From: an uncultured virus (IMG/VR IMGVR_UViG_2049941000_000062)
Taxonomy: Duplodnaviria; Heunggongvirae; Uroviricota; Caudoviricetes
IMG/VR virus record: IMGVR_UViG_2049941000_000062
Reading direction: 5' to 3' (one strand)
DNA: 61,425 nucleotides
The notes beneath the pieces are model-generated. The model saw only the letters and a program-made list of their open reading frames with translations, was not told the origin of the DNA and ran no database searches. This document shows, one piece after another, positions 1,220-60,310 of this stretch. Numbering within the stretch: the first letter of the stretch is position 1; each line of letters starts with the position of its first letter. The position numbers were made by a program, and so were the translations under genes.

Positions 1220-1750
1220 TTGACTATGAAGACAGTAGATATTAAAGGCAAAGCCTATGTAGAGGTTAACGAGAGAGTTAAACACTTCAGGGCTAACTAC
1301 AAAGACTGGGCTATCGAAACAGAGCTTCTATCAAACGATAACGGAGTATGTGTTTTCAAGGCAACAGTTAAAGACCCAGAAGGAGTGGTAAAGGCTACCG
1401 GCCACGCTTACGAGAACGAAGGTAGCACGTTTATTAACAAGACTAGCTATATCGAGAACTGCGAAACATCAGCAGTCGGTAGAGCTTTAGGTATGCTCGG
1501 TATCGGTATAGATACATCTATCGCAAGCTCAGACGAAGTTCAGAACGCTATGCAGAACCAGGGAGGTAAACCTGGAACCGACAAAGGTATCAACTTTACA
1601 GAGCTTAGAGAGAAATACTCAAAGTTCACTATCGAAGAACTCCGCAAGGAATACAAAGAGGTTCAAGAGTATCCTGGCTGGAGCGACAAGCAACGTGAGG
1701 CAGTCTTGAATATCATCTCAAGAGCTGTGGAGGCTAAGAAAAATGGATAG
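1220..1750 (+). CDS. Putative ssDNA-annealing protein (Rad52/Sak-like)
   Basis: ENCETSAVGRALG motif; occupies the same slot as the ERF gene of the other allele. Confidence 0.6.
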   Translation: MTMKTVDIKGKAYVEVNERVKHFRANYKDWAIETELLSNDNGVCVFKATVKDPEGVVKATGHAYENEGSTFINKTSYIENCETSAVGRALGMLGIGIDTSIASSDEVQNAMQNQGGKPGTDKGINFTELREKYSKFTIEELRKEYKEVQEYPGWSDKQREAVLNIISRAVEAKKNG

Positions 1751-1902
1751 CTACAAAGAATATCAGAAGGAATTGCTCCAGATCGAGAGCAACCTTCTGG
1801 AACGNNNNNNNNNNTGGAACGCTATCCAGAGCAAGAAGAAGGAATACAGCTTGCTCTAGCCTACGCATTATACGAGGCTAAAAAGCATTTTAACAAGTAA
1901 TA

Positions 1903-2296
1903 TTCGGTGGTGCTGCTAATTCGTGCGGTGCAGCTAAGTGGAAGGCATATCGAAGCCACCAAATCTTCATAAATGGGGTTTCACGCACCCAGCTCACGCT
2001 GCGAAACCCCTACCTTCCAAGATAAGCGGATATAACAAACTACGAGGTTCGCTTATCCTAGCGAGTGTGTAAGCATAAGTTACTCCAAAATCACTTATCC
2101 AAAATCAGGCCACTTACACGCTCACTAGGTGCTAGGTTAGCAGTTTACCCTAGCACTTAACCCACACTCATTCGACTCTGATACGTTTGCTATTTATCAG
2201 AGCCGGACGGGNNNNNNNNNNAGAAATTATCCCGCCCACCCAAATTCTCGGTTCATCTGGACGCTCGAACACTTGTTGAGAGGTGTTCGAGGGTTC
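1903..2296 (+). ncRNA. ~400-nt multi-stem structured RNA, allele A
   Basis: Non-coding; at least 7 stems with compensatory changes versus 33950..34374; invariant 29-nt core at 1930..1958. Confidence 0.75.
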
Positions 2297-2317
2297 GAAA
2301 AGGAGGTAAAGAGAGGT

Positions 2318-2488
2318 ATGAAGACAAAAAAGAAGAAAAATATCAACCCTTACGACTACGAGTATGAGGACTTTACACCAGGGTTCTGGTTTGGAATCGT
2401 AGCCGTAGCTATACTCGGTGGCCTTGCAGTCGTAGCGTTAGGTGCTGCTATTGCTGTGGTTATTAAGTGTATCGGAGGTGCTTTATGA
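2318..2488 (+). CDS. Small membrane protein
   Basis: SD AAGGAGG/GAGG; homolog at 33760..33930 minus. Confidence 0.65.
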   Translation: MKTKKKKNINPYDYEYEDFTPGFWFGIVAVAILGGLAVVALGAAIAVVIKCIGGAL

Positions 2489-2554
2489 GCGATGTAGACG
2501 AAGCTGCACGCTGGTATTGCAACCACGAAATGACGGCAGTAGGAGGGGAAGAAG

Positions 2555-2830
2555 ATGAAAATTAACACTCAGAATATGCGAGACAAAATCGAGGCTCTAG
2601 TTAAGTCCGATCCAGAACTCGCAAACGATGATAAAAGACTTATCGCCACTATATGGTGGCAAGAAGGCTGGAGAGATCCAGAACTACTAGCGAATCTTAA
2701 AAAAGTGTCTAGCCCAGAAACTATCAGAAGAACTAGGGCAAAGCTCGTAGAAGAAGGAGTTATCACTCCGTCCGAGAAGACACAAGAGGCTCGCTACCAA
2801 GACTATAAACAAGCAAGAATGGCTATTTAG
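2555..2830 (+). CDS. Conserved phage hypothetical protein (PETIRRTRAKL)
   Basis: Homolog at 33455..33733. Confidence 0.75.
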   Translation: MKINTQNMRDKIEALVKSDPELANDDKRLIATIWWQEGWRDPELLANLKKVSSPETIRRTRAKLVEEGVITPSEKTQEARYQDYKQARMAI

Positions 2831-2947
2831 GAGGCAAGAAATGAGAACAACAAATAGGTGGGCTAGCAGGTATGGAGATGCGTTTATCTCACTACCAAGC
2901 ATTATAGAGCAGTCGGGGTTAACGTATGAAGAATTGGAGGTAAGATA

Positions 2948-3145
2948 ATGAGCGGAACAAAAGCAGGCGGTCTTAAAGCGGCCGCAACTAACAAGGCAAA
3001 ATATGGCGAGGACTTCTACCGTATTCAAGGAGCAAAAGGTGGACGCAACGGCCACACAGGAGGCTTCGCAGCTAACCCAGAGCTTGCAAGAATTGCAGGC
3101 AAGAAGGGTGGAGCTATCTCAAAGAGGAGAAGGGCTGAAAAATGA
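2948..3145 (+). CDS. KGG-repeat (stress-induced acidophilic repeat-like) protein
   Basis: GAKGG / AGKKGG repeats; homolog at 33020..33349. Confidence 0.75.
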   Translation: MSGTKAGGLKAAATNKAKYGEDFYRIQGAKGGRNGHTGGFAANPELARIAGKKGGAISKRRRAEK

Positions 3146-3300
3146 GTAGAGAAAAGTATTCGCTCTTAGAAATCGTTAAAAACCGTGGTATCTCGCAGAA
3201 GATGTATCGAAGCCTTAGCCGTGAGATTAACGATAAAAAAGAAGAAAAGCGCAGGCAGAAACTAATTGAAAGCTTGCAAGAGGTACAGGAGGATAAATAA

Positions 3301-3714
3301 ATGTTAGTGATTTTAAGTATTTTATTTGTAGCAGTTATAGCAGGAGCAATTATGTCCTGGAAAAATGACGAGAGCGAGTTGACCTTTTTGCTTGTAGTTG
3401 TGGGGGTAATTGTGGGTATGGCTACTATACCTGGCTTAGTAAATATCTCGTTTGGAGAAAGCACATATACAGGTTACATCTACTCTGCAGAGAACGTCTT
3501 AAATATGACAGTCGGGCGTATTCGTTTCTCAGAAAATGCAGGTGCAGACGAACAGCCTAGCTTCTGCACCGTAAAAGGTTCAGAGCAAGCTAAAAAACTT
3601 AAAGAGTTAGCTGGTAGCGGAAAGAAAGTTGTTGTTACAGTCCCAGAGGGGTTTGTGTTAAATAACTGGTACGGACAATGCGGTCTCCCAGCTGTTATCG
3701 AGGAGGCAGAATGA
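3301..3714 (+). CDS. Membrane protein, hypothetical
   Basis: SD GGAGG, two N-terminal hydrophobic segments. Confidence 0.65.
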   Translation: MLVILSILFVAVIAGAIMSWKNDESELTFLLVVVGVIVGMATIPGLVNISFGESTYTGYIYSAENVLNMTVGRIRFSENAGADEQPSFCTVKGSEQAKKLKELAGSGKKVVVTVPEGFVLNNWYGQCGLPAVIEEAE

Positions 3715-3944
3715 TATTCGGCAAAAGAAAACGCACCTATGTAGACCCAGTAGAGCAGACGTTCAACATTATGATTAAACTTATCAAAGACTTGCCTAAA
3801 GCAGACTATAACCGTCTTAAAAAGGCTATGGACGCTGGCTACCAGAGCTATCAAATCGTTCGCAACGTCAAGACGGACGATGAGCGAGAGAACGCAGATA
3901 TTGACGAATCAGACAGGATATTAACGAAAGAGAGTGGTAAATGA
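3711..3944 (+). CDS. Conserved hypothetical protein
   Basis: Homolog at 32710..32869 minus; ATGA overlap with upstream gene. Confidence 0.7.
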   Translation: MIFGKRKRTYVDPVEQTFNIMIKLIKDLPKADYNRLKKAMDAGYQSYQIVRNVKTDDERENADIDESDRILTKESGK

Positions 3945-5002
3945 TCCTAGTCCGTTCAGAAGTAGAGTTTATAGATATTCGAAATAACAACCAGCTCAGA
4001 AAAGAGGGGGAGGTCTTCGAAGTATCTTATGCACGCCTACTCGAACTAAAAAAGAATGGAGTCAAGGTAAAGGTTATCAGAGTTGATTATCTAGGACGCA
4101 AGAAAAAGACAGGCCCTAAGGTTATGTTCTTCCAGAAATTGCTTTATGTAATTGGAGGAATTGAAACCTGGGGCCTTACTCTCGCTAAACTATACGAAGA
4201 CAGGGATATAACCTTCGTATTCTCTGAGGCAGACGACATTCAACTTATGGAGTTCGCCAAGTATTGTAACGTAGTCGTAGACGACGGACAGAGCCACTAC
4301 AAGTGCGACGTTCTTATATCTTCAAACTACGACGGTGGAGCTATCATTCTAGACCGTGTAGAAGCGAAGAAAAGGTATCAGACTATCCACTCAGACTTCG
4401 AGGCTATCAAGAAGTGTTATGGCTGGCATAACTTCAAGCTTGATATAGNNNNNNNNNNTAAGAACGAGTTTGGCTACGATTCGACTATTATTACTAACCC
4501 CCTGCTACCACTCGGAGAAAAGCCTCTAATTCTTTTAACTCTCTCTAGAGCAAGCGAAGAAAAAGGCTTCTGGCGAATGGTATCTATGGCTAAAAGGTTG
4601 GAAGGTGCAGGCAAACCGTTTATCTGGCTCGTAGCTTCAACCTTATGTGTAGCACCAAAAGACTTGCAGAAGGCAATTAAGTCTATCCCTGAAATGATAG
4701 AAGTAGAGCCACAGTTTTACACTAAGCAGTTGCTACATATTGCAGACTACTGCGTCCAGTTATCTGATACTGAGGCTTATTGCTATTCCATACACGAAAG
4801 TCTTGCTACCGGCGTTCCGGTTATCGCTACCGAGTTCGACCAGGCTAAGAAGATTATCAAAGACGGAGAGAACGGTTATCTCTTAAAGTTCGACTTATCT
4901 AACCTTGACGTTAACAAGATATTTAACAAAAGGCCTACTGGTTTCAAGTACGAAGAAAAGCCAAGCCCACTATGGGAGAAGGTTCTAAATGGTACGCTAT
5001 AA
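3941..5002 (+). CDS. GT4-like (glycos_transf_1) glycosyltransferase
   Basis: GGIETW; EAYCYSIHESLATGVPVIAT (EX7E); DGENGYL; spans one gap. Confidence 0.85.
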   Translation: MILVRSEVEFIDIRNNNQLRKEGEVFEVSYARLLELKKNGVKVKVIRVDYLGRKKKTGPKVMFFQKLLYVIGGIETWGLTLAKLYEDRDITFVFSEADDIQLMEFAKYCNVVVDDGQSHYKCDVLISSNYDGGAIILDRVEAKKRYQTIHSDFEAIKKCYGWHNFKLDIXXXXKNEFGYDSTIITNPLLPLGEKPLILLTLSRASEEKGFWRMVSMAKRLEGAGKPFIWLVASTLCVAPKDLQKAIKSIPEMIEVEPQFYTKQLLHIADYCVQLSDTEAYCYSIHESLATGVPVIATEFDQAKKIIKDGENGYLLKFDLSNLDVNKIFNKRPTGFKYEEKPSPLWEKVLNGTL

Positions 5003-5723
5003 GGTTTCAGTTATTATGGCGGCTTATAACGCCGAAGACACTATCGAAATGGCTCTCAACTCTATCCCAGACCGTGATGACGTGGAGATCATCGTAGTAA
5101 ACGACGGCTCTACGGACAAGACGGCCCAGAAGGTCAGAGATTTCGGCCGTGCTAGGTTGATCCAGCACAAAAAGNNNNNNNNNNATGACGTAGAGATCAT
5201 CGTAGTAGACGACGGCTCTACGGACAAGACGGCCCAGAAGGTCAGAGAGTTCGGTAGAGCAAAACTAATTCAGCACAAAAAGAACTACGGACTCGGCAAA
5301 GCCCTTAACACAGGCCTTAAAGAATCAACCGGCGAGTATGTAGTTATGCTAGACGCTGATGACGACTTCTACCCTGTTATCTTCGAGGAAATTATGGAAG
5401 ATCTAGACGGCACAGATTTAGTTTATTTCAACCTTATCACAAACGACGGTACTATCTTCGATCTAACGCCAAACTCTAGAGATATTTACTGCGGACAAAC
5501 CAAGTTTATACGAAAAGAGTTTATCGGAGATGCCAAGTACGACGAATCAGCTCCGATAGCTGAAGACGTTTCATTCTGGAATGAGTTAAAAGAAAAGAAC
5601 CCGACTGAGAAATACACAGGTCTTGTCGTTAAGCACTACAACTCACCAAGAGAAGGTAGTTTAACTTGGAGAAGACAGCAAGGCGAGTTTAACGATTATT
5701 TAAGAGAGAAAGGCGAGTTATGA
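4989..5723 (+). CDS. GT2 glycosyltransferase
   Basis: VSVIMAAYN, DDGSTD, LDADD; internal duplication at a gap is an assembly artefact. Confidence 0.85.
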   Translation: MVRYKVSVIMAAYNAEDTIEMALNSIPDRDDVEIIVVNDGSTDKTAQKVRDFGRARLIQHKKXXXXDVEIIVVDDGSTDKTAQKVREFGRAKLIQHKKNYGLGKALNTGLKESTGEYVVMLDADDDFYPVIFEEIMEDLDGTDLVYFNLITNDGTIFDLTPNSRDIYCGQTKFIRKEFIGDAKYDESAPIAEDVSFWNELKEKNPTEKYTGLVVKHYNSPREGSLTWRRQQGEFNDYLREKGEL

Positions 5724-6370
5724 AAGTTAGCATCATTATTCCAATCTACAATAGGTTGCACTCTACAATTAAGCTCCTAAGCAAACTAGACGACCAACTA
5801 GACCTCTGGAGGGATAGCGTACAGGTTATCTGTATTAACGACGGTTCAAAAGAAGAACTAGAATGCGAGAAGGCTGTTGAAGGTTTATGCCAGGCGTTTG
5901 GTTTCGAATACTACAAACAGAAGAACATCGGTGGAGCTGCTACTTGTAACAAAGGTATCGAGAAGGTCAAAGGCGACTACTTTACCTTCATCGACTGCGA
6001 TGACGATATAACAGACGACTACATACAAAATATCTTCTCGGAGCTAGGCGATAACGAACATCTTATTGCTTATAAGTGGTACTTCAAAGAGCCTAGAGAA
6101 CTAGGAGAGTGGCACGATAAGCCGTATGTTAACTGGAATGTTTGGAGTTATCTATTTAGAACAGATTATTTTAGCGAGTTCAAGTTTGACGAAAATATTA
6201 ACGTCGGTTGGGACTATGACTTCGTGCATAGGTCGATAGGGTCTAAACCTGATATGTATATCAGATACGTTCCAACTAAGGCGCTAGTTATTTACGATAG
6301 CGAAAACCCACAGAGCATAACAAATATGTTCCACCGTGGAGAAATTAAAGCAAGAAAGGACGACAAATGA
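5720..6370 (+). CDS. GT2 glycosyltransferase
   Basis: VSIIIPIYN, NDGS, FIDCDD. Confidence 0.85.
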   Translation: MKVSIIIPIYNRLHSTIKLLSKLDDQLDLWRDSVQVICINDGSKEELECEKAVEGLCQAFGFEYYKQKNIGGAATCNKGIEKVKGDYFTFIDCDDDITDDYIQNIFSELGDNEHLIAYKWYFKEPRELGEWHDKPYVNWNVWSYLFRTDYFSEFKFDENINVGWDYDFVHRSIGSKPDMYIRYVPTKALVIYDSENPQSITNMFHRGEIKARKDDK

Positions 6371-6566
6371 AAGCAGACATACTTATCGGAAAAGAGTGGT
6401 CTATCAACACTAAGAGAGACTACAAGAAGTTCCCGTGGAGTGTCTACAAGAGCCTGCGTGTAAAGTGGCTCAAAAAGAACCTTCCAAAAATCACTAAGAA
6501 ACAGATGAAACTAGAGCGAGAGTTAGCAGACTGGTTTCAACTTGAGAACTACGAGGAGAGGCACAG

Positions 6567-6764
6567 ATGACAATTAGAATATCAGGTGGCGGTCTTATCA
6601 CAATTCAGATCGTGCTAATTATATTAAAGCTCACAAACGTTATTGACTGGAGCTGGTGGCTAGTATTATTGCCAGCGTTATTGCCGGTAGCGTTGGTGGT
6701 TCTAGCCTTTTTAACAGTTATAGTAGCTCTAGCCTGTGGGGTTAGCGTAGGAGAAGAAGAATGA
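6567..6764 (+). CDS. Small membrane protein
   Basis: LKLTNVIDWSWWLVLLP, typical phage transmembrane protein. Confidence 0.65.
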   Translation: MTIRISGGGLITIQIVLIILKLTNVIDWSWWLVLLPALLPVALVVLAFLTVIVALACGVSVGEEE

Positions 6765-7172
6765 AAGAATCAGACTTGCAAGTTCAAGTGGCAGACTATC
6801 TTAGACTGCGTTATCCAGACGTTCAATTCCACTCTGACTTCGGCTCTGGTATCAAGCTTACAAAAGGTCAGGCTATGAAACAGTATAGGCAGAATGGTGG
6901 CCGCAGAGGTTGGCCCGACCTATTTATAGCTGAGCCTAAAATCAGACCGGGCTTTGATGATACTTGGAAATATGAGAGCTTAGGTCTATTTATCGAGCTT
7001 AAAGCAAAAGGTGTCCGACTCAAGAAGAAAGACGGTACTTGGGCTTCTACACATCTTGAAGAACAGAACGAGGTGTTGAATAAGCTCCAGAGGAAGGGCT
7101 ATGCCGCCTATTTTGCAGTAGGGTTCGAGGAAGCTAAACAGATTATAGATGACTATCTAGGAAATAACGAGT
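6761..7172 (+). CDS. VRR-NUC family nuclease
   Basis: ESDLQ...GWPDLFI...FIELK; end lies in a gap; homolog at 30848..31195. Confidence 0.8.
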
Positions 7173-7182
7173 NNNNNNNNNN

Positions 7183-7638
7183 GCATTCCATACGAAATCG
7201 CAGACTATGTAGAAATCGACAAGTATGCAGTAAAGAGCTTCAATGCTATTCACGGAACGAACTTCGAGCCACAAGATATTAAAGAATGGGACAAGGATAT
7301 AGAAGCAGACCTTATTATGCACGGTTCGCCTTGTCAGGACTTCTCCGTAGCTGGTAAAGGTGCAGGCGGAGATAAAGATTCTGGCACACGTTCTAGCCTT
7401 ATGTATGAAACACTACGTATCGTAGAGAAAATCAAACCAAAGTATGTAATATGGGAGAACGTCAAAAACCTACTCTCGAAGAAACATATTCATAACTTCG
7501 AAGCCTATCAAGAAGCTATGAGAGAGCTAGGGTACACTAACTACTACCAAGTTCTGAATGCTAAAGACTACGGTATTCCACAGAACAGAGAGAGAGAGTC
7601 TTTACTGTGAGTATCAGAGACGACCATAAGCAGACAGT
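7183..7638 (+). CDS. C5 cytosine methyltransferase N-terminal part, frameshifted at (AG)6
   Basis: GSPCQ, WENV and PQNRER motifs; removing one AG restores RVFTVSIR. Confidence 0.85.
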
Positions 7639-7837
7639 NNNNNNNNNNATGCGAAAACTTAAGGAGGAATAATGAACCAAAAACATACGCTAGCAGCAAT
7701 TGCAATTCAATTAGAAAGAATTGGAAATTTAATGGCAGAAGATATGAAAAGCAGAGGGTTAGGAGTAGAAGTTGAAGCGGTAAACCAAAAAGCAGAAGAA
7801 ACAGCACACAGTTATCTAGTCAAGTGCNNNNNNNNNN

Positions 7838-7968
7838 CTAGGCGCTACATATTTAAGAGGCCATTTGAGCTTGTCTCTTTCTACCACTAAGCGAATCATA
7901 GTTTGGAAGTCTGCAGGGACTTGGAGTTCTCCAGAGTCGATAGTTTCGTAGTTGTATGTTTTCTCAAA
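7838..7968 (-). CDS. Fragment of head-tail adaptor gene
   Basis: Translates to FEKTYNYETIDSGELQVPADFQTM, matching 60311..60976. Confidence 0.7.
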
Positions 7969-8648
7969 NNNNNNNNNNCTATCTATCTGAAGATAGACTA
8001 GACGTTATTTATAAGTGGGAGCAAAGGCAGAAAGAAAATGGTCGAGGTTTCAGATTCGATGTTAAGAATGGAGATTCAGTAGGCCGAGCAGTTACCACAG
8101 GCAGCGATAGACCAGCAGAAACGAACTATGTAGCCGTTAGAACCGCTAACAAAAAAGGATACGATCTAGCACAAGACGGAGATTCTATCGACCTAGNNNN
8201 NNNNNNAAAATGAGATTAAAGAAAGAAGAAAAAGAGTTTATCAAGGCTTGGGCTGGCTTATACAAAGCTCCGTTAGATACTACGGTAGTTAAAGGAATGG
8301 ACGGTCATATTAACTTTGGCAACCACTCTTGGTTCTGGTTGGCTGGCAAGTTCAATGGCCTTAAAGAAGGTAAAACTTATACAATAGAGGAGCTAATAAA
8401 ATGAAATCGGAAATAGGTGTAAAGAAATTTCGTGGGGTTGAACCAATAAATGCGCTTATCGTAACGGTGTTGGAAGGCTGNNNNNNNNNNGCTATTATGA
8501 TTAACCAGTATAAGTTGGCTAAGAGTGATAAGCCTGGTAGCACTAAAGCAGCAGAGTTCGTGAGAGATACCAAAGGTGAAGCTCCAAACAAGAATGAGAT
8601 TAGTTTCAACGGTATCGAGAGTATAACTATCAACTTTGGGAAGGATAA

Positions 8649-8840
8649 ATGATGACCTGTATCTCTGGCAAGAAAGAATATCCTACATTCTGGGCGGCAA
8701 ACAGAGAGAACCAAAAGAAGGTGCGAGAACATTGTGTAGAAATGGACGTATACAAGTGCAAGTTCTGTAACCAGTGGCACTTAACCGGCCATAACCGCAC
8801 AAGAGAAAAACAATTAAGGAGGTTAAACAAATGGAAGTAG
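8649..8840 (+). CDS. Small Cys/His (zinc-binding-like) protein upstream of TerL
   Basis: YKCKFCNQWHLT; near-identical copy at 26924..27112. Confidence 0.75.
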   Translation: MMTCISGKKEYPTFWAANRENQKKVREHCVEMDVYKCKFCNQWHLTGHNRTREKQLRRLNKWK

Positions 8841-9150
8841 AGGTAAACTTCCCTGAGGCTTACGAAGAAGCGGTAAAGCATATCATCGCTAGGGATAGGC
8901 GCTATATTGTCGAGGAGTCAGGTCGTGCAGGTGGTAAGACTAAGAACATCGCACAGGCGCTTATTTTAGCGGCTATGCAAGATAGACTTCGTATCTGCCC
9001 TGCTCGTGAGTACGAGAACACTACAACAGAGTCAGTCAAGCAGGCTCTAGTATCGGTTATCCAAGAAAAAGAGCTACCAGGCTGGACTATCCAAGATAAG
9101 AAACTTAAGTTCGCTAACGGCTCGGAAATCTTCTTCAAAGGTCTTAGAAC
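8831..9150 (+). CDS. terL: Terminase large subunit N-terminal fragment
   Basis: ESGRAGGKT Walker A; matches 23781..25166. Confidence 0.85.
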
Positions 9151-9161
9151 NNNNNNNNNNT

Positions 9162-9335
9162 AAGCTCACTCCGAAAGAATGTTGGAGACTTATGGGCTTT
9201 GATGATTCGGACTTCGAGAAAGCCGAGAAGGTTAACAGCAGTAGCCAACTTTACAAGCAAGCTGGAAACTCTATCGTAGTGAATGTGCTTGAAGGTATCC
9301 TAAAGAATCTATTGGAGAACGAATATGGACGATAA
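9162..9335 (+). CDS. C5 methyltransferase C-terminal fragment
   Basis: KLTPKECWRLMGF and YKQAGNSIVV (motifs IX/X). Confidence 0.8.
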   Translation, partial: KLTPKECWRLMGFDDSDFEKAEKVNSSSQLYKQAGNSIVVNVLEGILKNLLENEYGR

Positions 9336-9514
9336 CATCGAAGTATTCAGAATGAGCGATATTATGGACGGGCAACCAACAGAGTTTGTTACACAAGCGA
9401 GATACGAAGAAATAATAAGGCTAAACAAGAAAGGTGGAAAGAATGGCGAACGAACAAAATCTGATACCGTTTAACCAACTAACCGAGAGTGAACGCAGAG
9501 AGTTNNNNNNNNNN

Positions 9515-9752
9515 AGTTGCCATTAACGTCAATACCAACCGAGTTTCCGGCGAACTTGCCACTTGTTAGGCTAGAGGAAATGCTCACGTTCTCGAAGTAA
9601 GTTCCTTGTGGAACGTCAACCGTCGCCGTGTACCTGTATGCGGTAGAGCCGTCAGGGATAGACTTAGACGGTACAGAGAGCGATATGGTATATCTCCCCT
9701 TCATCTTGGCTGCTGTATAGTCTGAATTTACGATAAATCTATTGAGTTTCAT
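9515..9752 (-). CDS. Minor tail protein fragment
   Basis: Homolog at 56792..57178. Confidence 0.6.
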
Positions 9753-10459
9753 ACCTCATCTCCGAAAATCATATACTTATATGTGATGCTATCGCCGTAT
9801 TGGTTGCAAGCTCCGAACTTCACGTTCGTAGTATCGGCGGTCACTCCAAGCAATCCACCAGGGTATTGGGCATTGGATGTAGGGGCAAGGATATTCCAGT
9901 CAATAGAATAATCGTCGAATGGCGAAGTTTGCCTTTGCCACCAAGCTCTGGCCTGTGGCACATAACCGAGGTTGTGAGCAACATTTTTAGTGCTATTGTC
10001 AGGAACTGATATAGTGCCACTCTGGAAAAGCTTAGGGTAGTTAAACTCTGAGTTAAGCGTAAAGTGAGTGGTATCGCCGAGAGTATTGTTATAGTCACCT
10101 GTGTAATCTGGTGGTAAAAAGGCAAAGATTCTAAAATAGAATGTCTTTGTGCTTTCAGCGGTATGCTCGGCTGATAGCCTAATATGGGTGGAGTCAGCGC
10201 CAGCAATGATAGTTAAATCAGGTCTAGTGCCAGTAAATATCGGCATATCGTTCGCAAGGTCGTACGCAGGTTGGAAGTTAGCATTTGTAGACCATTGACC
10301 GATAATACACGGTGTAAATGGTAGACCGTGAGCAACGGACTTATGCGCAGCACTAAAATACTGCCCAACAGGTACGGTCAGGCTAGTTTCCATTTTCCAC
10401 ACCAAGATAGGAATAGGGTAGTCTGATGTAAGCATAAACTTGCGAGCGTCTTGAGCCAT
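9749..10459 (-). CDS. Putative tail protein (HGLPFTP/HNLGYVP repeats)
   Basis: Homolog at 57181..57846; tail module position. Confidence 0.65.
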   Translation of the reverse strand: MAQDARKFMLTSDYPIPILVWKMETSLTVPVGQYFSAAHKSVAHGLPFTPCIIGQWSTNANFQPAYDLANDMPIFTGTRPDLTIIAGADSTHIRLSAEHTAESTKTFYFRIFAFLPPDYTGDYNNTLGDTTHFTLNSEFNYPKLFQSGTISVPDNSTKNVAHNLGYVPQARAWWQRQTSPFDDYSIDWNILAPTSNAQYPGGLLGVTADTTNVKFGACNQYGDSITYKYMIFGDEV

Positions 10460-10749
10460 TACTGAACCTCGTCTAGCACGTTATATCCAGCCTTTGTGAT
10501 CCAGATGCCAGGTCTACCGTCTTTAGGGGCTTGGCCGATAAGGATACGAGGAGTGCCGGTAGCATCGTAGAATACTTCTCCATAGCGTCCATTCGGCAAG
10601 CGCCCAGACTGCATAGCTGTTTTGCCACCACCTTGCTGGATAGTTTTAGAGTATGCCTCTGCATCGAGCTGGCGGAAGTTGTCGTTAACGCGCCTGATAA
10701 CACCAGGTAGCTTTGTTTTTGAGCTTAATGGGGTGAATCTGTTTGGCAT
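10459..10749 (-). CDS. Small virion protein
   Basis: Homolog at 57846..58136. Confidence 0.65.
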   Translation of the reverse strand: MPNRFTPLSSKTKLPGVIRRVNDNFRQLDAEAYSKTIQQGGGKTAMQSGRLPNGRYGEVFYDATGTPRILIGQAPKDGRPGIWITKAGYNVLDEVQ

Positions 10750-10757
10750 ATAACCTC

Positions 10758-12710
10758 CTATCTAATTCTTTGCGTTTGTACGGTCACCGTGTGGCTTCTG
10801 AACGTTACAGGCTCATATGCAGCGATATGTTGGTATCTAAGCTGGCAACGATAGAACTCGCCGTTAATCTGTGGAATCGTCGACAGTCTAGTCGGCATAG
10901 TCGGAACACCATAATTGCTTGGCTCATCCCATACATAGCTCTCTCCTACCGTTTCAAGGTTCTGCAAGTCAACAGAGAACGCATACTTTACGTTGTCGGT
11001 ATAATCTAGTGCATATCCACACTTTACAGAGTATGGCTTAACAGTTGTTGCAAACTCAGGCCTCCACTTAGGGATACGCTTGAGCTGAGAGGTCGTGCCG
11101 AAGTGTTCGTATGCTGTTTCAAGGTTAAATGCGACAGCCGAGTTAAGGTCTGAATAGTTGTTGGTTTCATCCTCGTTAATCATAATGAGGCCAATCTTCG
11201 AGTGTCCACAGAGGAAGCGGTTTGAGCTGTTCTGGCGAGCTGATGTAGCCGATACATAGCCATTCGTGTCGAATGATTCCCAACGTTGCAAGTTGATGTT
11301 ATAGACTAGACAATGGTCGTTAGGGCCGCTTACTGTGCTTGGGTAGTAAACATATAAGCGGTTGTTATAAAGGTCAAGAACAACCTTCTCTTTGTTTGGA
11401 ATAGCATCATAGACGTTCTGAATGGTGTTCTGAGTGATAGACTCCTCATCCATACCATTAAAACAGTAGATGCCTGTATCATTTGCGAAATATGCGTAGT
11501 TGAGGTCGCACACGAGCGATTCTTGGCTGAATGTGCCATTCTGAGCAGTACATTGGCTCTGATTCCATTGGTCTGCCGTCTGAGCGTACATCTGATACTT
11601 ATTTCTGCGAGTTAAGATGTAATATACACCGCCGAGGTTAAAGACTGCAGTTAGAGGGTCGCCAGTCTGAATAGCTGGGAAGTTCTGGTAGAAATCACGG
11701 TCAAACTTATCATAGCTGTTAATAGGGGTGTTGTTGTAGCTGAAGCCATATGGATAAGTCCAAACTGCTTGCGTATCTGTATCAGCATCGAAATAGAACA
11801 TATTATCAGCCGTACCGTCTAAGATGTTAGACACTTTAATGTTAAGGTCTGTGCCAGTCTTAAGGTCGGTAGTAGTGATTGCGGTATCTGCCCAAGAGTT
11901 TGCAGGGTTGAGCAAGCGAGGGCCTTCCTTCCCGTCCGCATAACGGATTTGGTTAAGGTCTTGGTTAAAGCGTACTTTCGTTACGCCTGCTGGAAGGTCA
12001 CGAATCTTAGTATTAGTATTATCTGCAGCCATACGGTAAAGAGAACCGTTGTGGACGAATAAGATTGTCTTAGTGCCATTTATGTTCGCCTCGAACACGT
12101 TTGATACGCCACCAGCGGTACAGCTTGAAACCGTACAGCCAAGCACACCAGATACGGTCTGGACTACATATGTAGACTCTCTGCTCTCTTGTGTTCCTAG
12201 CTTAATGGTGTATGTGTTGCCACTCGATAAGGTTGGTGCGTCCATAAACACGGCTTCAATGGTCTGGTAGTTGGTCGTGATTGTGCTAGGGTCGATAAAC
12301 GCTTCAGAGATTAAGTCATCGCCACGATAAAGGCCAATGCTAGGTACTGCATAAACATCGAGAGGAGATTTCTTGATGTTGATTTTAGCCGAGAAAAGAG
12401 TCGCATTTGAGCCGGCAAAAGTATAAGGCTGGACATCTGCAATAGGAGTGTCGGTAGATGCGCTAGAAAGGTTGGTAGATAGGTTCGCATAACCAATAGG
12501 GTTGCCTAGCCTCTTATATCCTCTGCGTGTCTTATATTCACCGATACGGTCAAAGCGTGCATCCTGAGCAAGTCTAAGCTCGGAGTTCTTCATAGTGTCG
12601 TTTGGCTTATAGGTAGAGATACCGTCTGCGAAGTTCGTTGTGGATGGCGAAGATTTACCGGTAGAGATATTTGGAATAGTTTTGATTCTTGTAAACCTTG
12701 ACTGTACCAT
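10758..12710 (-). CDS. Putative tail nozzle/stabilisation protein (podovirus tubular protein B-like)
   Basis: 650 aa, beta-rich, follows the adaptor; homolog at 58145..60307. Confidence 0.65.
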   Translation of the reverse strand: MVQSRFTRIKTIPNISTGKSSPSTTNFADGISTYKPNDTMKNSELRLAQDARFDRIGEYKTRRGYKRLGNPIGYANLSTNLSSASTDTPIADVQPYTFAGSNATLFSAKINIKKSPLDVYAVPSIGLYRGDDLISEAFIDPSTITTNYQTIEAVFMDAPTLSSGNTYTIKLGTQESRESTYVVQTVSGVLGCTVSSCTAGGVSNVFEANINGTKTILFVHNGSLYRMAADNTNTKIRDLPAGVTKVRFNQDLNQIRYADGKEGPRLLNPANSWADTAITTTDLKTGTDLNIKVSNILDGTADNMFYFDADTDTQAVWTYPYGFSYNNTPINSYDKFDRDFYQNFPAIQTGDPLTAVFNLGGVYYILTRRNKYQMYAQTADQWNQSQCTAQNGTFSQESLVCDLNYAYFANDTGIYCFNGMDEESITQNTIQNVYDAIPNKEKVVLDLYNNRLYVYYPSTVSGPNDHCLVYNINLQRWESFDTNGYVSATSARQNSSNRFLCGHSKIGLIMINEDETNNYSDLNSAVAFNLETAYEHFGTTSQLKRIPKWRPEFATTVKPYSVKCGYALDYTDNVKYAFSVDLQNLETVGESYVWDEPSNYGVPTMPTRLSTIPQINGEFYRCQLRYQHIAAYEPVTFRSHTVTVQTQRIR

Positions 12711-12713
12711 AGT

Positions 12714-13066
12714 TTATACCTCGTTAATTCTAATATTGAATGGTGCTTTCATACGGTTGCCACCGTCAAACTGTCGTGGGCCATAACGCATAGCCATATT
12801 CGTGATAAGTTCTGCCTTCTGGTTGTCGTAGATTTGTGCGAAGTCGTAGTTGCCACGGCGACGTTCTGCACGTGCAAGAGCGCCGTAGATAAGAATCTCG
12901 CCATACTCGCTAGGGATAAGTGGTACGTCTGTTGGGTTAGACAACTTCATAGGTTTAGCAAGATAATAGATCTTCATAGTGTAGTAGTTGTCTGGAACGT
13001 CGTCGTTCTGGTCGCAGTTGAACTCGTCTGGTAAGTGGAAGTGGATAGTATTCCCGATGATTGTAT
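12714..13066 (-). CDS. Head-tail adaptor C-terminal fragment
   Basis: Matches C-terminus of 60311..60976. Confidence 0.7.
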
Positions 13067-17801: not shown

Positions 17802-18074
17802 CTACTGCTCTCCTTTCTTCTTGTGCGCTTTAACTTCAACGTTGATACTGTCAATAAAGTCGATAACACTCTTGATACCGCTTGCACGGCCTACATTAGC
17901 TGCGATTTGCTCGTTAGGGCATTGGAGCTTGAGATATACGCTCTCGGCCGTTTCAAGGGCTTCTAAGCGCATATCTTTGATAAGCTTCAAGAATAACTCG
18001 CCACCTTCGGACTCGAAGAAGAAGCTATACATTTTCTTCTTATCTTCGTATGATAGTGGTTCGTTAAGCTCCAT
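17802..18074 (-). CDS. Small protein downstream of portal
   Basis: FFESEGGELFL; homolog fragment at 21812..21956. Confidence 0.7.
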   Translation of the reverse strand: MELNEPLSYEDKKKMYSFFFESEGGELFLKLIKDMRLEALETAESVYLKLQCPNEQIAANVGRASGIKSVIDFIDSINVEVKAHKKKGEQ

Positions 18075-19884
18075 AAGCCTCCTCTAAGCTTGGCTGTTCT
18101 TCTACCATAGGTTGTTCTGGCATAGTCATTTCAGTCTTTACTTCTTCGGTCTGAGCTGGGAGCATTTGTTGAGTTGGAGCGATAATCTCTTGTAGTTCTT
18201 CGTGGTTAATGTCAGGGAGAACCTTAGGTAAGATATACTCTTTAATCTTCGTGAGGTCGTTTGTAGGGTCTGCGATAAGCATTTGATAAGCTTGCATATA
18301 CATCTCACGTTTCTCTGCGTCTTCGAGCTTCTTCATAACGTCAAGCGTTACCATAGGTGTATATTCGCCGAGGAAGCGATCCATATCAACTTGCTCGAAC
18401 TTAACACCTGCGTCTGTGATATTGCGGACATAAAGGTCTTTTCCACCGTAAAGTTGCAAGAGCTTGAATACGATGTTAGCTTCTTGGAAGAAGAAACCGT
18501 TTGCGAGGTTCTGTGCTATATCTTCGATTCTAAGGTCGCTCTGACCGAGCATAGCCTTGATTTCGGTAGCAGTTGTAGTATCTGTAGCAGTAACACCCTT
18601 AGAGATCTGTGAAACAGATGAAACCTCACGGATCTCGTCTTTGATATTCATACGCTCGGTAAAGAGTGCTGTTGGAATTGCTGGAGGTGTGTTCCAGGTC
18701 ATAGCACCAGCAGGGAGAGGGTAGACTTTGCCCGGAGCTTGGCCGAGTTGGTCGATATAGGTAGCATACTTTGGATCTACGGTCTTTTCTGGATAAACGG
18801 CGATGAGTTGAGCTTCTACATATATCTCCGTGATAGTGTTTAGGAGTTCCTGCTGGTCTGCAATAATATCTACATCGCCTGTGCCATACGGGAGCGAGAT
18901 GTCTTTATATTCGCAGTCGTGTGCGAATGGGAATAGTCCGGCGCTTAATGGGTCGAACTCCTCAGGGAACTCGCCTATATCTTCGCCAGTAAGCTCAAAT
19001 TGGTTGATACGGTTGATTTCCCACTCTCTCTTGCGAATCTCGAACTTCGATTTCTCCATAGCATAGTGTGGGTTCTCTTTTTCTTCGATAATCTGTGAGC
19101 GGTTAGCGATAACGACTACTTTCTTACGAGTCCAGATTTCGATAAGCTCTACTGAGTTCTTATCTTTCTTAGCGATAGAGCCGATAACTTCTTCTTTCTT
19201 CGCCTTGTCTGTTTCGTTGTCGTCTGTCTGTGAACCGATTTTGTCTAGGTTCTTGTAGCGTGGAACATAACGCTCTTTTTCGAAGTCGTAGATTTTTTCT
19301 TCTTTAAGGTCTTTAAGGTTAGCGAAGATTCTACGGCCGACATAGTGCCAGCTCTCTGGATCACGAGCGTTAGGGTCGATAATCATATCACGGATAGGAA
19401 CTATCTCTTTGTGGACGTATCCACCGTTCTTATCTTGTATCCAAGTATAATAAGCACAGAAGTTGCCTGTGATAAGCCCTTGACGGCCCATATCCTTGTT
19501 TTTGCCTACCCAGTTGTCTTTACGAGCGAAGTCTTGATAGACCTCGTTTAAGACTGCCGTGTCTGCGTCCTGGTCTTTGTTGTTTGGGATATAGTTTACT
19601 TCTGGTGGACGGTTAAAAAGAGCCGCAACTTTGGTGTTAACCATAGAGTTAGTCATAGGCACAAAAGCCTCAACCTTCCCAGGGTGGTCTACCTTAGTTC
19701 TGCGGTTGTTGTATAATTTCCAGTTTCTTTCCCACCTTTGGTGGTAGTTTTCTTTAGCGTAGTCCCACGAGTTGTTGAACCACTTAAGATATTTCTGAAG
19801 TTTATTTGCTTCAGCCTGCGATTTCTTTGATGTATAATTTGCGTCTGCCAAGTTGTTGCCAAACGCATCGCCAACTACCACCAT
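18064..19884 (-). CDS. Portal protein allele 1 (probable start TTG at 19851)
   Basis: ~600 aa after TerL; TATEI motif of podovirus portals. Confidence 0.85.
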   Translation of the reverse strand: MVVVGDAFGNNLADANYTSKKSQAEANKLQKYLKWFNNSWDYAKENYHQRWERNWKLYNNRRTKVDHPGKVEAFVPMTNSMVNTKVAALFNRPPEVNYIPNNKDQDADTAVLNEVYQDFARKDNWVGKNKDMGRQGLITGNFCAYYTWIQDKNGGYVHKEIVPIRDMIIDPNARDPESWHYVGRRIFANLKDLKEEKIYDFEKERYVPRYKNLDKIGSQTDDNETDKAKKEEVIGSIAKKDKNSVELIEIWTRKKVVVIANRSQIIEEKENPHYAMEKSKFEIRKREWEINRINQFELTGEDIGEFPEEFDPLSAGLFPFAHDCEYKDISLPYGTGDVDIIADQQELLNTITEIYVEAQLIAVYPEKTVDPKYATYIDQLGQAPGKVYPLPAGAMTWNTPPAIPTALFTERMNIKDEIREVSSVSQISKGVTATDTTTATEIKAMLGQSDLRIEDIAQNLANGFFFQEANIVFKLLQLYGGKDLYVRNITDAGVKFEQVDMDRFLGEYTPMVTLDVMKKLEDAEKREMYMQAYQMLIADPTNDLTKIKEYILPKVLPDINHEELQEIIAPTQQMLPAQTEEVKTEMTMPEQPMVEEQPSLEEAYGA

Positions 19885-19898
19885 TATAACATATTTTC

Positions 19899-21567: not shown

Positions 21568-21945
21568 TTTTTCCACCTTTCTTTAGTTTTATTATTTCGA
21601 CACCTTCTCCCATTAGTGCCTTTCTATGTATAAGTCTTCGTCCATATCTAGGTTGATAGTTGATTTGCTACATTTACCGAGAGTAACGCAGCTTGTCTTA
21701 TTTACTTGAACGATATACCTTTCTTCCCTATATGGGTCTTCTGGTTCGCCACAGCCTTCCAACACCGTTACGATAAGCGCATTTATTGGTTCAACCCCAC
21801 GNNNNNNNNNNTAAGGTATGCAGTTTGAGCAACATCTAGTCGCTCTGCCTGCATATCCTTCAAAATCTGTCTAAATAACTCACCTTGCTCAGACTCGAAG
21901 AAAAAGCTGTGCATTGCCTTTTTCTGCTCGTAAGTGATAGGTTCG

Positions 21946-23766: not shown

Positions 23767-23780
23767 TATAACACATTTCT

Positions 23781-27486: not shown

Positions 27487-27553
27487 ATCCACCTCCTTCT
27501 CTGAGTTAGAACAGTCCCCACTCTGCAAGTTTTTCAAAGCCACNNNNNNNNNN

Positions 27554-33733: not shown

Positions 33734-33949
33734 TTTGCACCTCCTATAAGTCTTGGTCGTTATTTTGCTACGCTACTTGCGAATACAATCCCACTCGCTA
33801 CGACCATTGCGAATAGTACAATTACTGCGATCATACCTACGATGGTTAAGACCGAAGCGAATACGAAGCCTGGAGTGAACTCCTCTTTCTCGTATTCAAA
33901 TGGTTTTATTTGCTTAGTTTTTTTATTCATACCGTTTACCTCCTTTTAT

Positions 33950-34374
33950 GAACCCTTGAAGCTGACTCAACCTAGCTTCAAGCGTCCTGATGAACTGAGA
34001 TTTGAGAAGGGTGGGCAATATTCTTAATCTCAGCTCGTCAGGCTCTGGTGAATAGCAAACGCACCAGAGTCACCGTAGAGTGTGGTTTAGTGGTTGGATG
34101 GGGTTATTGCATCCAGCCACCTAGTGAGCAGTCGAACCTACTACAGCGGCTATCAAGAGTGGGGAGTTTTATGATCGCCTTCGACTACTCGCNNNNNNNN
34201 NNTAGGATTGCCAGCCTACGCAGTTTGTTTCGGCTTTCGCCTGCCGGCAATCTAGTAGAAACTTGGAGGGGGTTTCGCAATTTGGTGTATGAAACCCCTT
34301 TATGAAGATTAGTTGGCTTCGATATGCCTTCCACTTAGCTGCTCCGCACCTATTGAGCCAGCACCAACTAATCT
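33950..34374 (-). ncRNA. ~400-nt multi-stem structured RNA, allele B
   Basis: Covaries with 1903..2296. Confidence 0.75.
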
Positions 34375-58136: not shown

Positions 58137-58144
58137 ACACCTCC

Positions 58145-60307: not shown

Positions 60308-60310
60308 AAC

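What the first reader, a model, noticed from the sequence alone, without database searches (positions are those of the whole stretch)
1903..2296. ~400-nt multi-stem ncRNA with extensive covariation in the early operon
Seen by comparing with 33950..34374 (minus), stems swap sequence but keep pairing: GGUGG/CCACC versus AGUUGG/CCAACU around an invariant 29-mer GCAGCUAAGUGGAAGGCAUAUCGAAGCCA; GGGGUUUC/GAAACCCC in both; GAUAAGCGGA/UUCGCUUAUC versus GAUUGCCGGC/GCUGGCAAUC; GAGUGUGUAAG/CUUACACGCUC versus GAGUAGUCGAA/UUCGACUGCUC; GUGCUAGG/CCUAGCAC versus GUGGCUGGAUG/CAUCCAACCAC; CUCUGAUA/UAUCAGAG versus CUCUGGUG/CACCAGAG around invariant loop CGUUUGCUAUU; CUCGAACAC/GUGUUCGAG versus CUUGAAGCU/AGCUUCAAG around GUUGAG. 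There is no conserved ORF and I recognise no known family. Inference: a large phage ncRNA, a put-like antiterminator, or a decoy/processed sRNA array.
Basis: partly seen in the sequence, partly recalled or inferred. Interest (0 to 1): 0.85.

Follow-up and report, generated by a model that had tools for sequence, protein, structure and literature searches.

The report
New structured RNA in gut phages
A previously undescribed, roughly 400-base folded RNA sits in the early genes of a small group of gut phages, directly in front of a tiny membrane-protein gene whose ribosome-binding site it appears to hide.

Summary
I found 11 more full-length variants in IMG/VR and metagenome contigs, giving 13 in all (314-456 nt).

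- **Covariation is strong.** In the 3' domain, 98.9% of cells pair and 25 of 37 pairs change on both sides (0 of 500 shuffles reach this). In the 5' domain, 89.2% of cells pair and 22 of 39 pairs change on both sides (0 of 500).
- **The RNA is read from the gene-sense strand.** G-U outnumbers A-C 46 to 2 in the 3' domain.
- **It is neither coding nor known.** Every frame has stops in every variant, and Rfam 15 gives no match.
- **The "invariant 29-mer" is not a family feature.** It is invariant only between the two window copies.
- **Synteny is fixed in 13 of 13.** The order is recombinase gene, short ORF whose stop codon touches the first helix, the RNA, an invariant Shine-Dalgarno (SD) sequence, then a 54-65 aa membrane protein.
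- **The SD is predicted to be buried.** Median P(unpaired) is 0.07, against 0.35 for 50 control SDs. Its usual partner is a CU-rich linker about 290 nt upstream.

My best reading (about 0.45) is a cis-acting intercistronic leader that controls translation of the small membrane protein. A free-standing ornate phage ncRNA is the main rival. A put-like antiterminator, an sRNA array and a replication origin are not supported.

The parts
1898..1900 (+). Copy A: stop codon of the upstream short ORF, touching the foot of helix P1
   Evidence: The stop lies 10-16 nt before the inner end of the P1 5' strand in 13 of 13 variants.
1900..1966 (+). Copy A, 5' domain. P1 is 1900-1910 paired with 1956-1966. 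It encloses hairpin P2 (1912-1934) and a 21-nt conserved single strand (1935-1955) that holds the invariant GGAAGGC.
   Evidence: Coordinates read by hand. P1 is 95.5% paired, with 8 of 11 pairs changed on both sides; P2 is 82.9% paired.
1975..2010 (+). Copy A, hairpin HP2, with an optional distal mini-stem
   Evidence: the inner 4 pairs are 100% paired and 3 of them change on both sides. Sequences.
2011..2020 (+). Copy A: CU-rich linker, the candidate anti-Shine-Dalgarno (core 2013-2018)
   Evidence: It is the predicted partner of the SD in 10 of 12 folded variants. The linker:SD duplex is -6.8 to -9.5 kcal/mol in 13 of 13.
2021..2057 (+). Copy A, hairpin HP3. Its 3' loop side is conserved. 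In most relatives it carries an inner hairpin capped by a GNRA tetraloop.
   Evidence: helix 6 is 97.4% paired, with 5 of 8 pairs changed on both sides. Tetraloops GAAA, GAGA and GCAA are seen.
2058..2128 (+). Copy A, long hairpin HP4. It is dispensable, being absent in L009.
   Evidence: 16 pairs, 7 changed on both sides. L009 lacks it.
2129..2156 (+). Copy A, hairpin HP5 (variable; absent in L009)
   Evidence: folds as a hairpin in 12 of 12 variants that have it, with different stem sequences.
2173..2297 (+). Copy A, 3' domain. A short closing helix (2173-2175 with 2295-2297) surrounds HP6 (2176-2202), HP7 (2203-2260, with mask 2212-2221) and HP8 (2261-2294).
   Evidence: 37 pairs, 98.9% paired, 25 changed on both sides. 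The outer closing pair is canonical in 12 of 13 (9 C-G, 3 U-A).
2302..2306 (+). Copy A: Shine-Dalgarno GGAGG of the downstream gene. It is invariant in the family and predicted to be paired.
   Evidence: invariant columns. P(unpaired) is 0.03 here; the median is 0.07 for 11 element SDs against 0.35 for 50 controls.
2318..2488 (+). Copy A: 56-aa single-pass membrane protein gene, the candidate regulated gene
   Evidence: No Pfam, PHROG or Atlas lead.
33936..34374 (-). Copy B, whole element.
- P1: 34374-34364 with 34316-34306
- P2: 34362-34338
- HP2: 34298-34269
- Linker: 34268-34253
- HP3: 34252-34206
- Mask: 34202-34193
- HP4: about 34205-34121
- HP5: 34120-34090
- HP6: 34069-34043
- HP7: 34042-33986
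- HP8: 33985-33952
- SD: 33943-33939
   Evidence: Coordinates read by hand. The same models match it.
33760..33930 (-). Copy B: 56-aa membrane protein gene downstream of the element

Best explanation
The element is a real, previously uncatalogued structured RNA of 314-456 nt. It is transcribed on the gene-sense strand as part of the early (recombination) operon of a small clade of roughly 27-31 kb integrase-bearing phages from gut and rumen-type metagenomes.

Its layout is:
- a 5' domain (helix P1 enclosing hairpin P2 and a highly conserved single strand);
- hairpin HP2;
- a CU-rich linker;
- hairpins HP3 to HP5, of which HP4 and HP5 are dispensable;
- a 3' four-way junction (HP6, HP7 and HP8 closed by a 3-bp helix);
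- then, 4-9 nt later, an invariant GGAGG and the start codon of a 54-65 aa single-pass membrane protein.

I infer that it works in cis as an intercistronic leader. The CU-rich linker pairs with the SD about 290 nt downstream, and in some variants the segment just after P1 also pairs with the AUG. The membrane protein's initiation region is then locked inside the fold and its translation is held low.

Release is the least certain step. The upstream ORF's stop codon always sits at the foot of P1. A terminating ribosome would therefore melt P1, next to where the AUG is clamped, so translation of the two ORFs may be coupled through the structure. A protein, a ligand or RNase processing are equally open triggers.

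Shown: the fold, the strand, the synteny, and the absence of a coding frame or an Rfam match. Predicted in silico: SD occlusion. Inferred: regulation and its trigger.
For: **Fold**
- 3' domain: 98.9% paired, 25 of 37 pairs changed on both sides, 0 of 500 shuffles reach this.
- 5' domain: 89.2% paired, 22 of 39 pairs, 0 of 500 shuffles.
- HP4: 7 of 16 pairs changed on both sides.
- HP5 folds as a hairpin in 12 of 12 variants that have it.

**Strand**
- G-U against A-C in helices is 46:2 in the 3' domain and 32:18 in the 5' domain.

**Not coding, not known**
- Every frame has at least 2 stops in 13 of 13 variants.
- Rfam gives 0 hits at gathering threshold on the window.
- Rfam gives 0 hits at E<=1 on 9 homolog loci.
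- At E<=10 on 1700-2500 there are only two chance-level hits.

**Link to the downstream gene**
- The SD and its flanks are invariant columns of the RNA alignment.
- A small membrane protein follows in 13 of 13 variants, including a non-homologous one in L003.
- The two relatives whose gene order I read that have the neighbouring 92-aa protein but no RNA (L010, L011) also lack the small membrane gene.

**SD occlusion**
- Mean P(unpaired) of GGAGG has a median of 0.07 for 11 element SDs, against 0.35 for 50 other GGAGG-type SDs in the same loci (Mann-Whitney p = 1.6e-6).
- The most probable partner is the HP2-HP3 linker in 10 of 12 folds.
- The linker:SD duplex is -6.8 to -9.5 kcal/mol in 13 of 13. 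The linker sequence drifts (CCUCC, CUUCC, UUUCCUU) but stays complementary.

**Position and presence in RNA**
- The upstream stop codon lies 10-16 nt before the inner end of P1 in 13 of 13.
- One 163-nt contig of a bovine-gut metatranscriptome library lies on 1960-2122 with 2 differences.
Against: - No experiment or read-level RNA data shows transcript ends, processing or regulation. The single RNA-library contig could come from DNA carry-over.
- SD occlusion rests on thermodynamic prediction. The SD never varies, so there is no two-sided covariation for the SD:linker helix. The 11-13 sequences are relatives, not independent trials.
- Single-sequence shuffle tests of the linker:SD duplex are only modest. 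The fraction of shuffles at least as good is 0.017-0.18.
- In 2 of 12 folds the SD pairs elsewhere, with a C-rich stretch before HP6.
- The AUG clamp is clearly better than shuffles in only 2-3 of 13 and is absent in 4 of 13.
- About 300 nt of conserved hairpins, conserved loops and GNRA tetraloops is far more than SD masking needs. That favours an additional or different function.
- The proposed switch partner (the invariant GGAAGG strand pairing with the linker) fits only 8 of 14 rows.
Confidence: 0.45

Rival explanations
1. It is a free-standing, stable, ornate phage ncRNA that acts in trans or as an RNA-only assembly, in the manner of ROOL or GOLLD. Possible roles are a decoy or sponge for a host or defence factor, or a scaffold. 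On this reading its 3' end merely abuts the next gene's ribosome-binding site.
For: - It has many conserved loops, GNRA-capped hairpins, a four-way junction and a 21-nt near-invariant single strand, more than a masking leader needs.
- It is at least as conserved as the flanking genes. The two copies are 78% identical in the element, against 69-70% in the neighbouring coding DNA.
- An RNA-library contig lies wholly inside it.
Against: - No terminator or promoter of its own was found. The last hairpin has no U-run, and promoter-like hits are at the chance level.
- The invariant SD is continuous with the conserved block.
- Co-occurrence with the small membrane gene is strict: 13 of 13 with the RNA have it, and both relatives read without the RNA lack it.
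- There is no match to any Rfam model, including the large phage RNAs.
Confidence: 0.25
2. It is an mRNA processing or stability element. On this reading, a block of stable structure between two parts of the operon acts as an exonuclease barrier or an endonuclease entry site, setting different levels for the recombination genes and the downstream genes.
For: - It has an intercistronic position with no promoter or terminator of its own.
- Its stems are very stable (MFE -136 and -158 kcal/mol).
- An RNA-library contig lies inside the structured part.
Against: - Barrier elements need stable stems, not conserved loops, junctions and single strands.
- This reading does not explain the invariant SD or the complementary linker.
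Confidence: 0.1
3. It is a put-like, cis-acting processive antiterminator that modifies RNA polymerase as it transcribes the early operon.
For: - It is a sense-strand structured RNA in the early operon of an integrase-bearing phage.
- Its helices carry conserved bulges and loops.
Against: - By recall, put RNAs are about 70 nt, have two stem-loops and sit just after the early promoters. This element has eight or more helices and is 314-456 nt.
- It sits after the recombinase genes, more than 1 kb from the integrase-proximal intergenic region.
- No sense-strand terminator-like site lies downstream in 2300-9800. All 8 sites found are on the other strand.
- The one strong terminator-like hairpin of copy B lies upstream of the element, at 35876-35854.
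Confidence: 0.06
4. It is a DNA-level or primer element: a replication origin, a single-strand origin, or an RNA pre-primer. The appeal is that these phages show no recognisable replication initiator.
For: - No replication initiator, helicase or primase was recognised among the ORFs scanned.
- The element lies in the recombination/replication part of the genome.
Against: - There are no iterons.
- It is not AT-rich: 43-47% GC, like the flanks.
- The strong G-U over A-C asymmetry and the conserved loops argue for a folded RNA of one strand rather than duplex protein-binding sites.
- The tie to the SD is unexplained on this reading.
Confidence: 0.05

Closest known systems
ROOL, GOLLD and OLE (large ornate bacterial and phage RNAs)
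   Same: It is a large, multi-helix RNA of unknown biochemical function with GNRA-type loops. It is phage- or prophage-borne, and its relatives come from ruminant or gut-type metagenomes. ROOL is named 'rumen-originating' in PMC12286853, of which I saw only the search listing and the start of the abstract.
   Different: - There is no match to any Rfam model at E<=10 on the element or at E<=1 on 9 homolog loci.
- It is shorter (314-456 nt).
- It is fused to the SD of a downstream gene.
- There are no tRNA genes nearby.
- Oligomerisation was not tested.
5' leaders of type I toxin mRNAs (hok, tisB, zorO, fst; prophage-borne yonT/SR6 and bsrG/SR4 in Bacillus)
   Same: A small hydrophobic protein of about 55-65 aa, carried on a phage, has an SD that is predicted to be sequestered by upstream RNA. 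This includes long-range pairing.
   Different: - The leader is several times larger and much more ornate.
- No antisense antitoxin RNA was identified.
- The protein matches no family in the libraries searched (Pfam, PHROGs, ESM Atlas), and its toxicity is unknown.
- The mechanisms of hok, tisB and zorO are recalled, not taken from a call. For yonT/SR6 I saw only the listing and abstract of PMC5848175.
Translational riboswitches and translational T-boxes (SD sequestered by an anti-SD in the expression platform)
   Same: A conserved multi-helix domain lies upstream of an SD that pairs with a complementary pyrimidine stretch. The anti-SD drifts but stays complementary.
   Different: - No known aptamer matches.
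- The anti-SD lies about 290 nt from the SD, with six hairpins between them.
- There is no ligand candidate.
- It is intercistronic rather than at a transcript's 5' end.
HK022 put RNA (processive antitermination)
   Same: It is a cis-encoded structured RNA in the early operon of a temperate phage.
   Different: Size, number of helices and position relative to promoters all differ, and there is no terminator evidence. The features of put are recalled.
Structure-mediated translational coupling and ribosome shunting (MS2 long-distance interactions; CaMV 35S leader shunt)
   Same: A short upstream ORF ends at the foot of a large stable structure in 13 of 13 variants. In some variants the downstream start is predicted to pair next to that foot.
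   Different: This is a bacterial DNA-phage operon. The AUG clamp is not consistent across the family. No evidence for reinitiation exists. Both comparators are recalled, not tested.

Membership tests
Any Rfam 15 family (4227 models) | A covariance-model score at or above the family's gathering threshold | tested here: not met
   - 0 hits on the whole window.
- At E<=10 on 1700-2500 there are only two chance-level antisense hits, to a lncRNA and a microRNA model.
- 0 hits at E<=1 on 9 homolog loci.
ROOL / GOLLD | Match to the family model; free-standing intergenic RNA, often beside tRNA genes (the last point is recalled) | tested here: not met
   No Rfam hit. No tRNA in the window. The element is continuous with the SD of the next gene.
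HK022-type put antiterminator | Two stem-loops of about 70 nt just downstream of an early promoter (recalled) | tested here: not met
   It has eight or more helices and is 314-456 nt. It lies after the recombinase genes.
HK022-type put antiterminator | Downstream terminators that are read through; direct action on RNA polymerase | tested here: inconclusive
   The consensus scan finds no sense-strand terminator-like site in 2300-9800. The scan is crude, and action on polymerase is not testable here.
Type I toxin-antitoxin (toxin mRNA) | Small hydrophobic protein of under about 60-65 aa | tested here: met
   A 54-65 aa protein with one hydrophobic stretch follows the element in 13 of 13 variants.
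Type I toxin-antitoxin (toxin mRNA) | SD sequestered by the mRNA's own structure | tested here: met
   Met in silico only. Median P(unpaired) is 0.07 against 0.35 for controls. Partners are given.
Type I toxin-antitoxin (toxin mRNA) | A cognate antisense or trans antitoxin RNA; toxicity of the peptide | not testable with these tools
   Promoter-like hits are at the chance level (20 found against 14.2 +/- 4.0 expected). No stranded read data were available (one search used contigs only).
Riboswitch / T-box | A recognised aptamer or T-box core | tested here: not met
   No Rfam hit.
Riboswitch / T-box | Alternative pairing that frees the SD on binding a signal | tested here: inconclusive
   The invariant GGAAGG strand is complementary to the anti-SD linker in 8 of 14 rows and poorly so in 5 of 14.
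Phage replication origin | Iterons, an AT-rich unwinding region | tested here: not met
   At most two 10-11 nt two-copy repeats per copy. GC is 43-47%, like the flanks.

The most novel reading that the evidence does not exclude
The fold may act as a bridge for long-range translational coupling. It brings the stop codon of the upstream ORF (at the foot of P1) next to the start codon of the membrane-protein gene about 420 nt away, which is clamped just 3' of P1. The SD is locked by the linker. A ribosome that terminates upstream would melt P1 and open the downstream start, or be handed over to it. This would be a bacterial counterpart of ribosome shunting across a large structured leader. The conserved 5' domain and its invariant single strand would serve as the sensor or ribosome-contact surface.
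Probability: 0.12. Interest if true: 0.85.

Novelty: new variant of a known kind. Interest (0 to 1): 0.62.

Why it matters
- **Such RNAs are rare.** Large, intricately folded RNAs with strong covariation are few, and past examples turned out to be ribozymes, riboswitches or RNA-only assemblies. This family is absent from Rfam 15 and confined to a small clade of gut phages.
- **It offers clear, testable handles.** Most orphan RNA motifs lack these. This one has an invariant SD, a drifting but always complementary anti-SD about 290 nt away, an upstream stop codon placed at the first helix, and a natural minimal version (L009, 314 nt) that lacks two hairpins.
- **If the cis-leader reading is right,** it shows how a temperate phage keeps a small membrane protein tightly controlled inside an early operon. 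That protein could be a toxin, an exclusion factor or a lysis modulator.
- **If the structure-bridged coupling reading is right,** it would be a new mode of translational control in bacteria.

Tried and rejected
**Searches that found no new relatives**
- A 20-mer from the '29-mer' gave 0 hits in viral contigs. In genome contigs it gave one hit, in a Sinorhizobium contig, which is chance: 54-61% GC and no similarity beyond the 20 bases. That scan used the only genome contigs slot with a word that is not conserved in the family, so absence from sequenced genomes is not shown.
- blastn ('distant') of 1700-2500 against 50,697 phage records found no match.
- A 3'-domain pattern scan of viral contigs returned 10 loci: 9 already known and 1 chance hit in a high-GC coding region (L038).
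- Metagenome loci L032 and L037 are chance matches.
- No whole genome is held for the window.
- The scan's earlier findings held nothing.

**Function of the neighbouring proteins**
- Pfam, PHROGs and the ESM Atlas gave nothing for the small membrane protein, the 92-aa neighbour or most other neighbours.

**RNA-library run X1**
- No contig lay on the flanks (1200-1959, 2123-3200). This shows nothing either way, because only contigs were available.

**Pairings tested and found weak**
- Start-codon clamp by the segment after P1: present at <= -4.3 kcal/mol in 9 of 13, no better than shuffles in 4 of 13. It is kept only as a tentative feature.
- Linker pairing with the invariant GGAAGG strand as a switch: fits 8 of 14 rows, so it is not adopted.
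- My first automatic parsing of linkers mis-assigned several hairpins. It was replaced by the model-based alignment.
- RNAalifold on the raw MAFFT alignment of the 5' domain gave a poor structure. I supplied the structure by hand for model R2, so the pair counts lean towards it.

**Other**
- Literature searches listed no description of this RNA. I read no paper beyond listings and abstract starts.
- A script meant to locate sub-features was not run (see steps_to_tell). Part coordinates were read by hand.

Full report
**What is in the window**

The stretch 1900-2309 (+) and its counterpart 34374-33936 (-) align over their whole length at 78% mean column identity. Each copy holds one masked 10-N run (2212-2221; 34193-34202).

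The window itself carries two related phage genomes. There are two terminase and portal sets, an Erf recombinase, an integrase and glycosyltransferases. The two 'alleles' are therefore the same locus in two related phages.

**Relatives**

- A pattern built on the conserved hairpin loop found two IMG/VR contigs.
- A protein-based scan with the neighbouring 92-aa protein added more loci.
- A degenerate 5'-domain pattern that matches all known copies found 9 loci on 8 IMG/VR contigs. It also found 16 metagenome loci, 2 of which are chance matches.
- After removing duplicates there are 13 distinct full-length variants of 314-456 nt, including the two in the window, plus four truncated ones.
- A second scan, with a 3'-domain pattern, added only a chance hit.
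- The family is therefore small. It sits on contigs of about 27-31 kb, and on one of 56.9 kb that carries two copies.

**It is a structured RNA of the sense strand**

| Region | Alignment | Pairs | Cells paired | Pairs changed on both sides | Shuffles reaching this | Slid controls |
|---|---|---|---|---|---|---|
| 3' domain | 13 sequences, plain MAFFT, RNAalifold structure | 37 | 98.9% | 25 | 0 of 500 | 33-45% |
| 5' domain | 14 rows, fitted to a model whose structure I supplied | 39 | 89.2% | 22 | 0 of 500 | 32-51% |
| Long middle stem | 13 sequences | 16 | not given | 7 | not run | not run |

- The 5'-domain counts lean towards the structure I supplied.
- The next hairpin (HP5) folds in 12 of 12 variants that have it, with different stem sequences.
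- G-U pairs outnumber A-C 46:2 in the 3' domain and 32:18 in the 5' domain. The folded strand is therefore the one read in the direction of the flanking genes.
- All six frames carry at least 2 stops in all 13 variants.
- Rfam 15 gives no hit at gathering threshold on the window. At E<=10 on the element it gives only two chance-level hits. It gives none at E<=1 on nine homolog loci.
- The region is not AT-rich and has no iterons.

**Anatomy**

1. Helix P1 (9-11 bp) encloses hairpin P2, whose loop is conserved, and a 21-nt nearly invariant single strand that contains GGAAGGC.
2. Hairpin HP2 follows, with an optional distal mini-stem.
3. A CU-rich linker comes next.
4. Hairpin HP3 has a conserved 3' loop strand. 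In most variants it carries an inner hairpin capped by GAAA, GAGA or GCAA, with covarying stems.
5. HP4 is a long stem, and HP5 follows it. Both are missing in the 314-nt variant L009, so they are dispensable.
6. A C-rich stretch precedes the 3' domain.
7. The 3' domain is a four-way junction. HP6, HP7 and HP8 have conserved loops. A 3-bp helix closes them, and its outer pair is C-G in 9 variants, U-A in 3 and unpaired in 1 of the 13.
8. Four to nine bases later comes an invariant GGAGG, and then the start codon.

**Context**

In 13 of 13 variants the order is the same:
- a single-strand-annealing or recombination gene, which is Erf in most and a different family in copy A;
- a short ORF of about 42-60 codons, not always homologous;
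- the RNA;
- a 54-65 aa protein with one hydrophobic helix, replaced by a non-homologous small membrane protein in L003.

The stop codon of the short ORF lies 10-16 nt before the inner end of the P1 5' strand in all 13, which places it at the foot of P1.

Four relatives have the 92-aa neighbour gene but give no match to the RNA models. In the two whose gene order I read (L010, L011), the small membrane gene is also absent. The RNA and the small gene therefore travel together.

**How it most likely works**

- Folding each element with 30 nt of the downstream gene puts the SD in a helix.
- Mean P(unpaired) of GGAGG has a median of 0.07 for 11 element SDs. For 50 other GGAGG-type SDs from the same loci, folded with the same length of context, the median is 0.35 (p = 1.6e-6). 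The element sequences are related to one another, so this p-value overstates independence.
- The partner is the HP2-HP3 linker in 10 of 12 folds. In the other 2 it is the C-rich stretch before HP6.
- The linker differs between variants but forms a duplex of -6.8 to -9.5 kcal/mol with the SD region in 13 of 13. Composition-matched shuffles average -5.2, and the fraction of shuffles at least as good is 0.017-0.18.
- The SD never varies, so this helix cannot show two-sided covariation.
- A second long-range contact, between the segment just after P1 and the start codon, is strong in a few variants and absent in others. I treat it as tentative.

From this I infer a cis-acting intercistronic leader that keeps the initiation region of the small membrane protein closed. 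What opens it is unknown. The fixed position of the upstream stop codon suggests that a terminating ribosome melts P1. A protein, a ligand or nuclease processing are equally possible. An anti-anti-SD role for the invariant GGAAGG strand fits only 8 of 14 rows.

**Expression**

One bovine-gut metatranscriptome library holds a 163-nt contig that lies on 1960-2122 with two differences. This shows that near-identical sequence is present in an RNA library. It shows nothing about ends, strand or level.

**Rivals**

- The size and ornateness of the fold are more than SD masking needs: GNRA loops, a four-way junction, and conserved loops and strands. A free-standing ornate phage RNA therefore remains a serious alternative (0.25).
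- A processing or stability element is possible (0.1).
- A put-like antiterminator is unlikely (0.06) and a replication origin or primer is unlikely (0.05), for the reasons listed under each.

**Comparison with known systems**

- It works most like the SD-sequestering leaders of type I toxin mRNAs and like the expression platforms of translational riboswitches.
- It looks most like the large ornate phage-borne RNAs.
- It is a member of none of these families by the tests I could run.
- Statements about put, hok, tisB, MS2 and CaMV shunting are from recall.
- For ROOL/GOLLD (PMC12286853), the 224-motif survey (PMC5737381) and yonT/SR6 (PMC5848175), I saw only search listings and abstract starts.

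**Verdict**

The best-supported mechanism is cis translational control of a small membrane protein, held at moderate confidence.

Noticed in passing
window 1-61425; e.g. 17969-20968 vs 21851-24853: The window holds two related phage genomes, with many internally similar segments. The portal and terminase block is duplicated back to back at 80% identity, and the tail-region blocks are repeated (10417-13006 vs 57804-60603). There are 53 runs of N, most of them exactly 10 long. It may be two adjacent prophages or a mixed-strain assembly.
   Followed up: partly
L014 and L019 (IMGVR_UViG_3300031998_000109, 56,946 bp): One IMG/VR contig also carries two copies of the RNA locus. They are 26.3 kb apart, in the same orientation, and differ by a few bases. 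Paired related genomes therefore recur in this phage group.
   Followed up: no
window 34193-34202: The 10-N run in copy B sits where its close relative L002 has no bases at all; the flanking letters are contiguous in L002. At least this N run may be an insertion or gap rather than an in-place mask.
   Followed up: no
window 1220-1750 (+) vs 34501-35088 (-): The recombination gene upstream of the RNA is not the same in the two copies. Copy B has Erf (Pfam PF04404, E = 8e-39). Copy A has a protein of PHROG 11717, of unknown function. The RNA module is kept while its upstream neighbour is swapped.
   Followed up: partly
L026:580-993 (-): In this variant the conserved 'GUUGAG'-type loop is missing from the last hairpin (HP8). 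A near-identical loop appears instead on HP5. The loop may matter more than the hairpin that carries it.
   Followed up: no
window 27112-29608 (-): There is a 410-aa protein with an S-adenosylmethionine synthetase N-terminal domain. Next to it lie a DNA methyltransferase split into two ORFs and a ParB-like N-terminal part.
   Followed up: no
window 35876-35854 (-): A strong terminator-like hairpin (10 pairs followed by a T-run) lies on the sense strand of copy B's early region. It is upstream of the recombinase genes and downstream of a good promoter-like site at 36941-36913. It may be an early attenuation point.
   Followed up: no
window 1900-2300: GC skew turns negative and AT skew falls to about zero inside the element. 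The flanking coding DNA is purine-rich on the sense strand. This compositional footprint marks the non-coding block.
   Followed up: no
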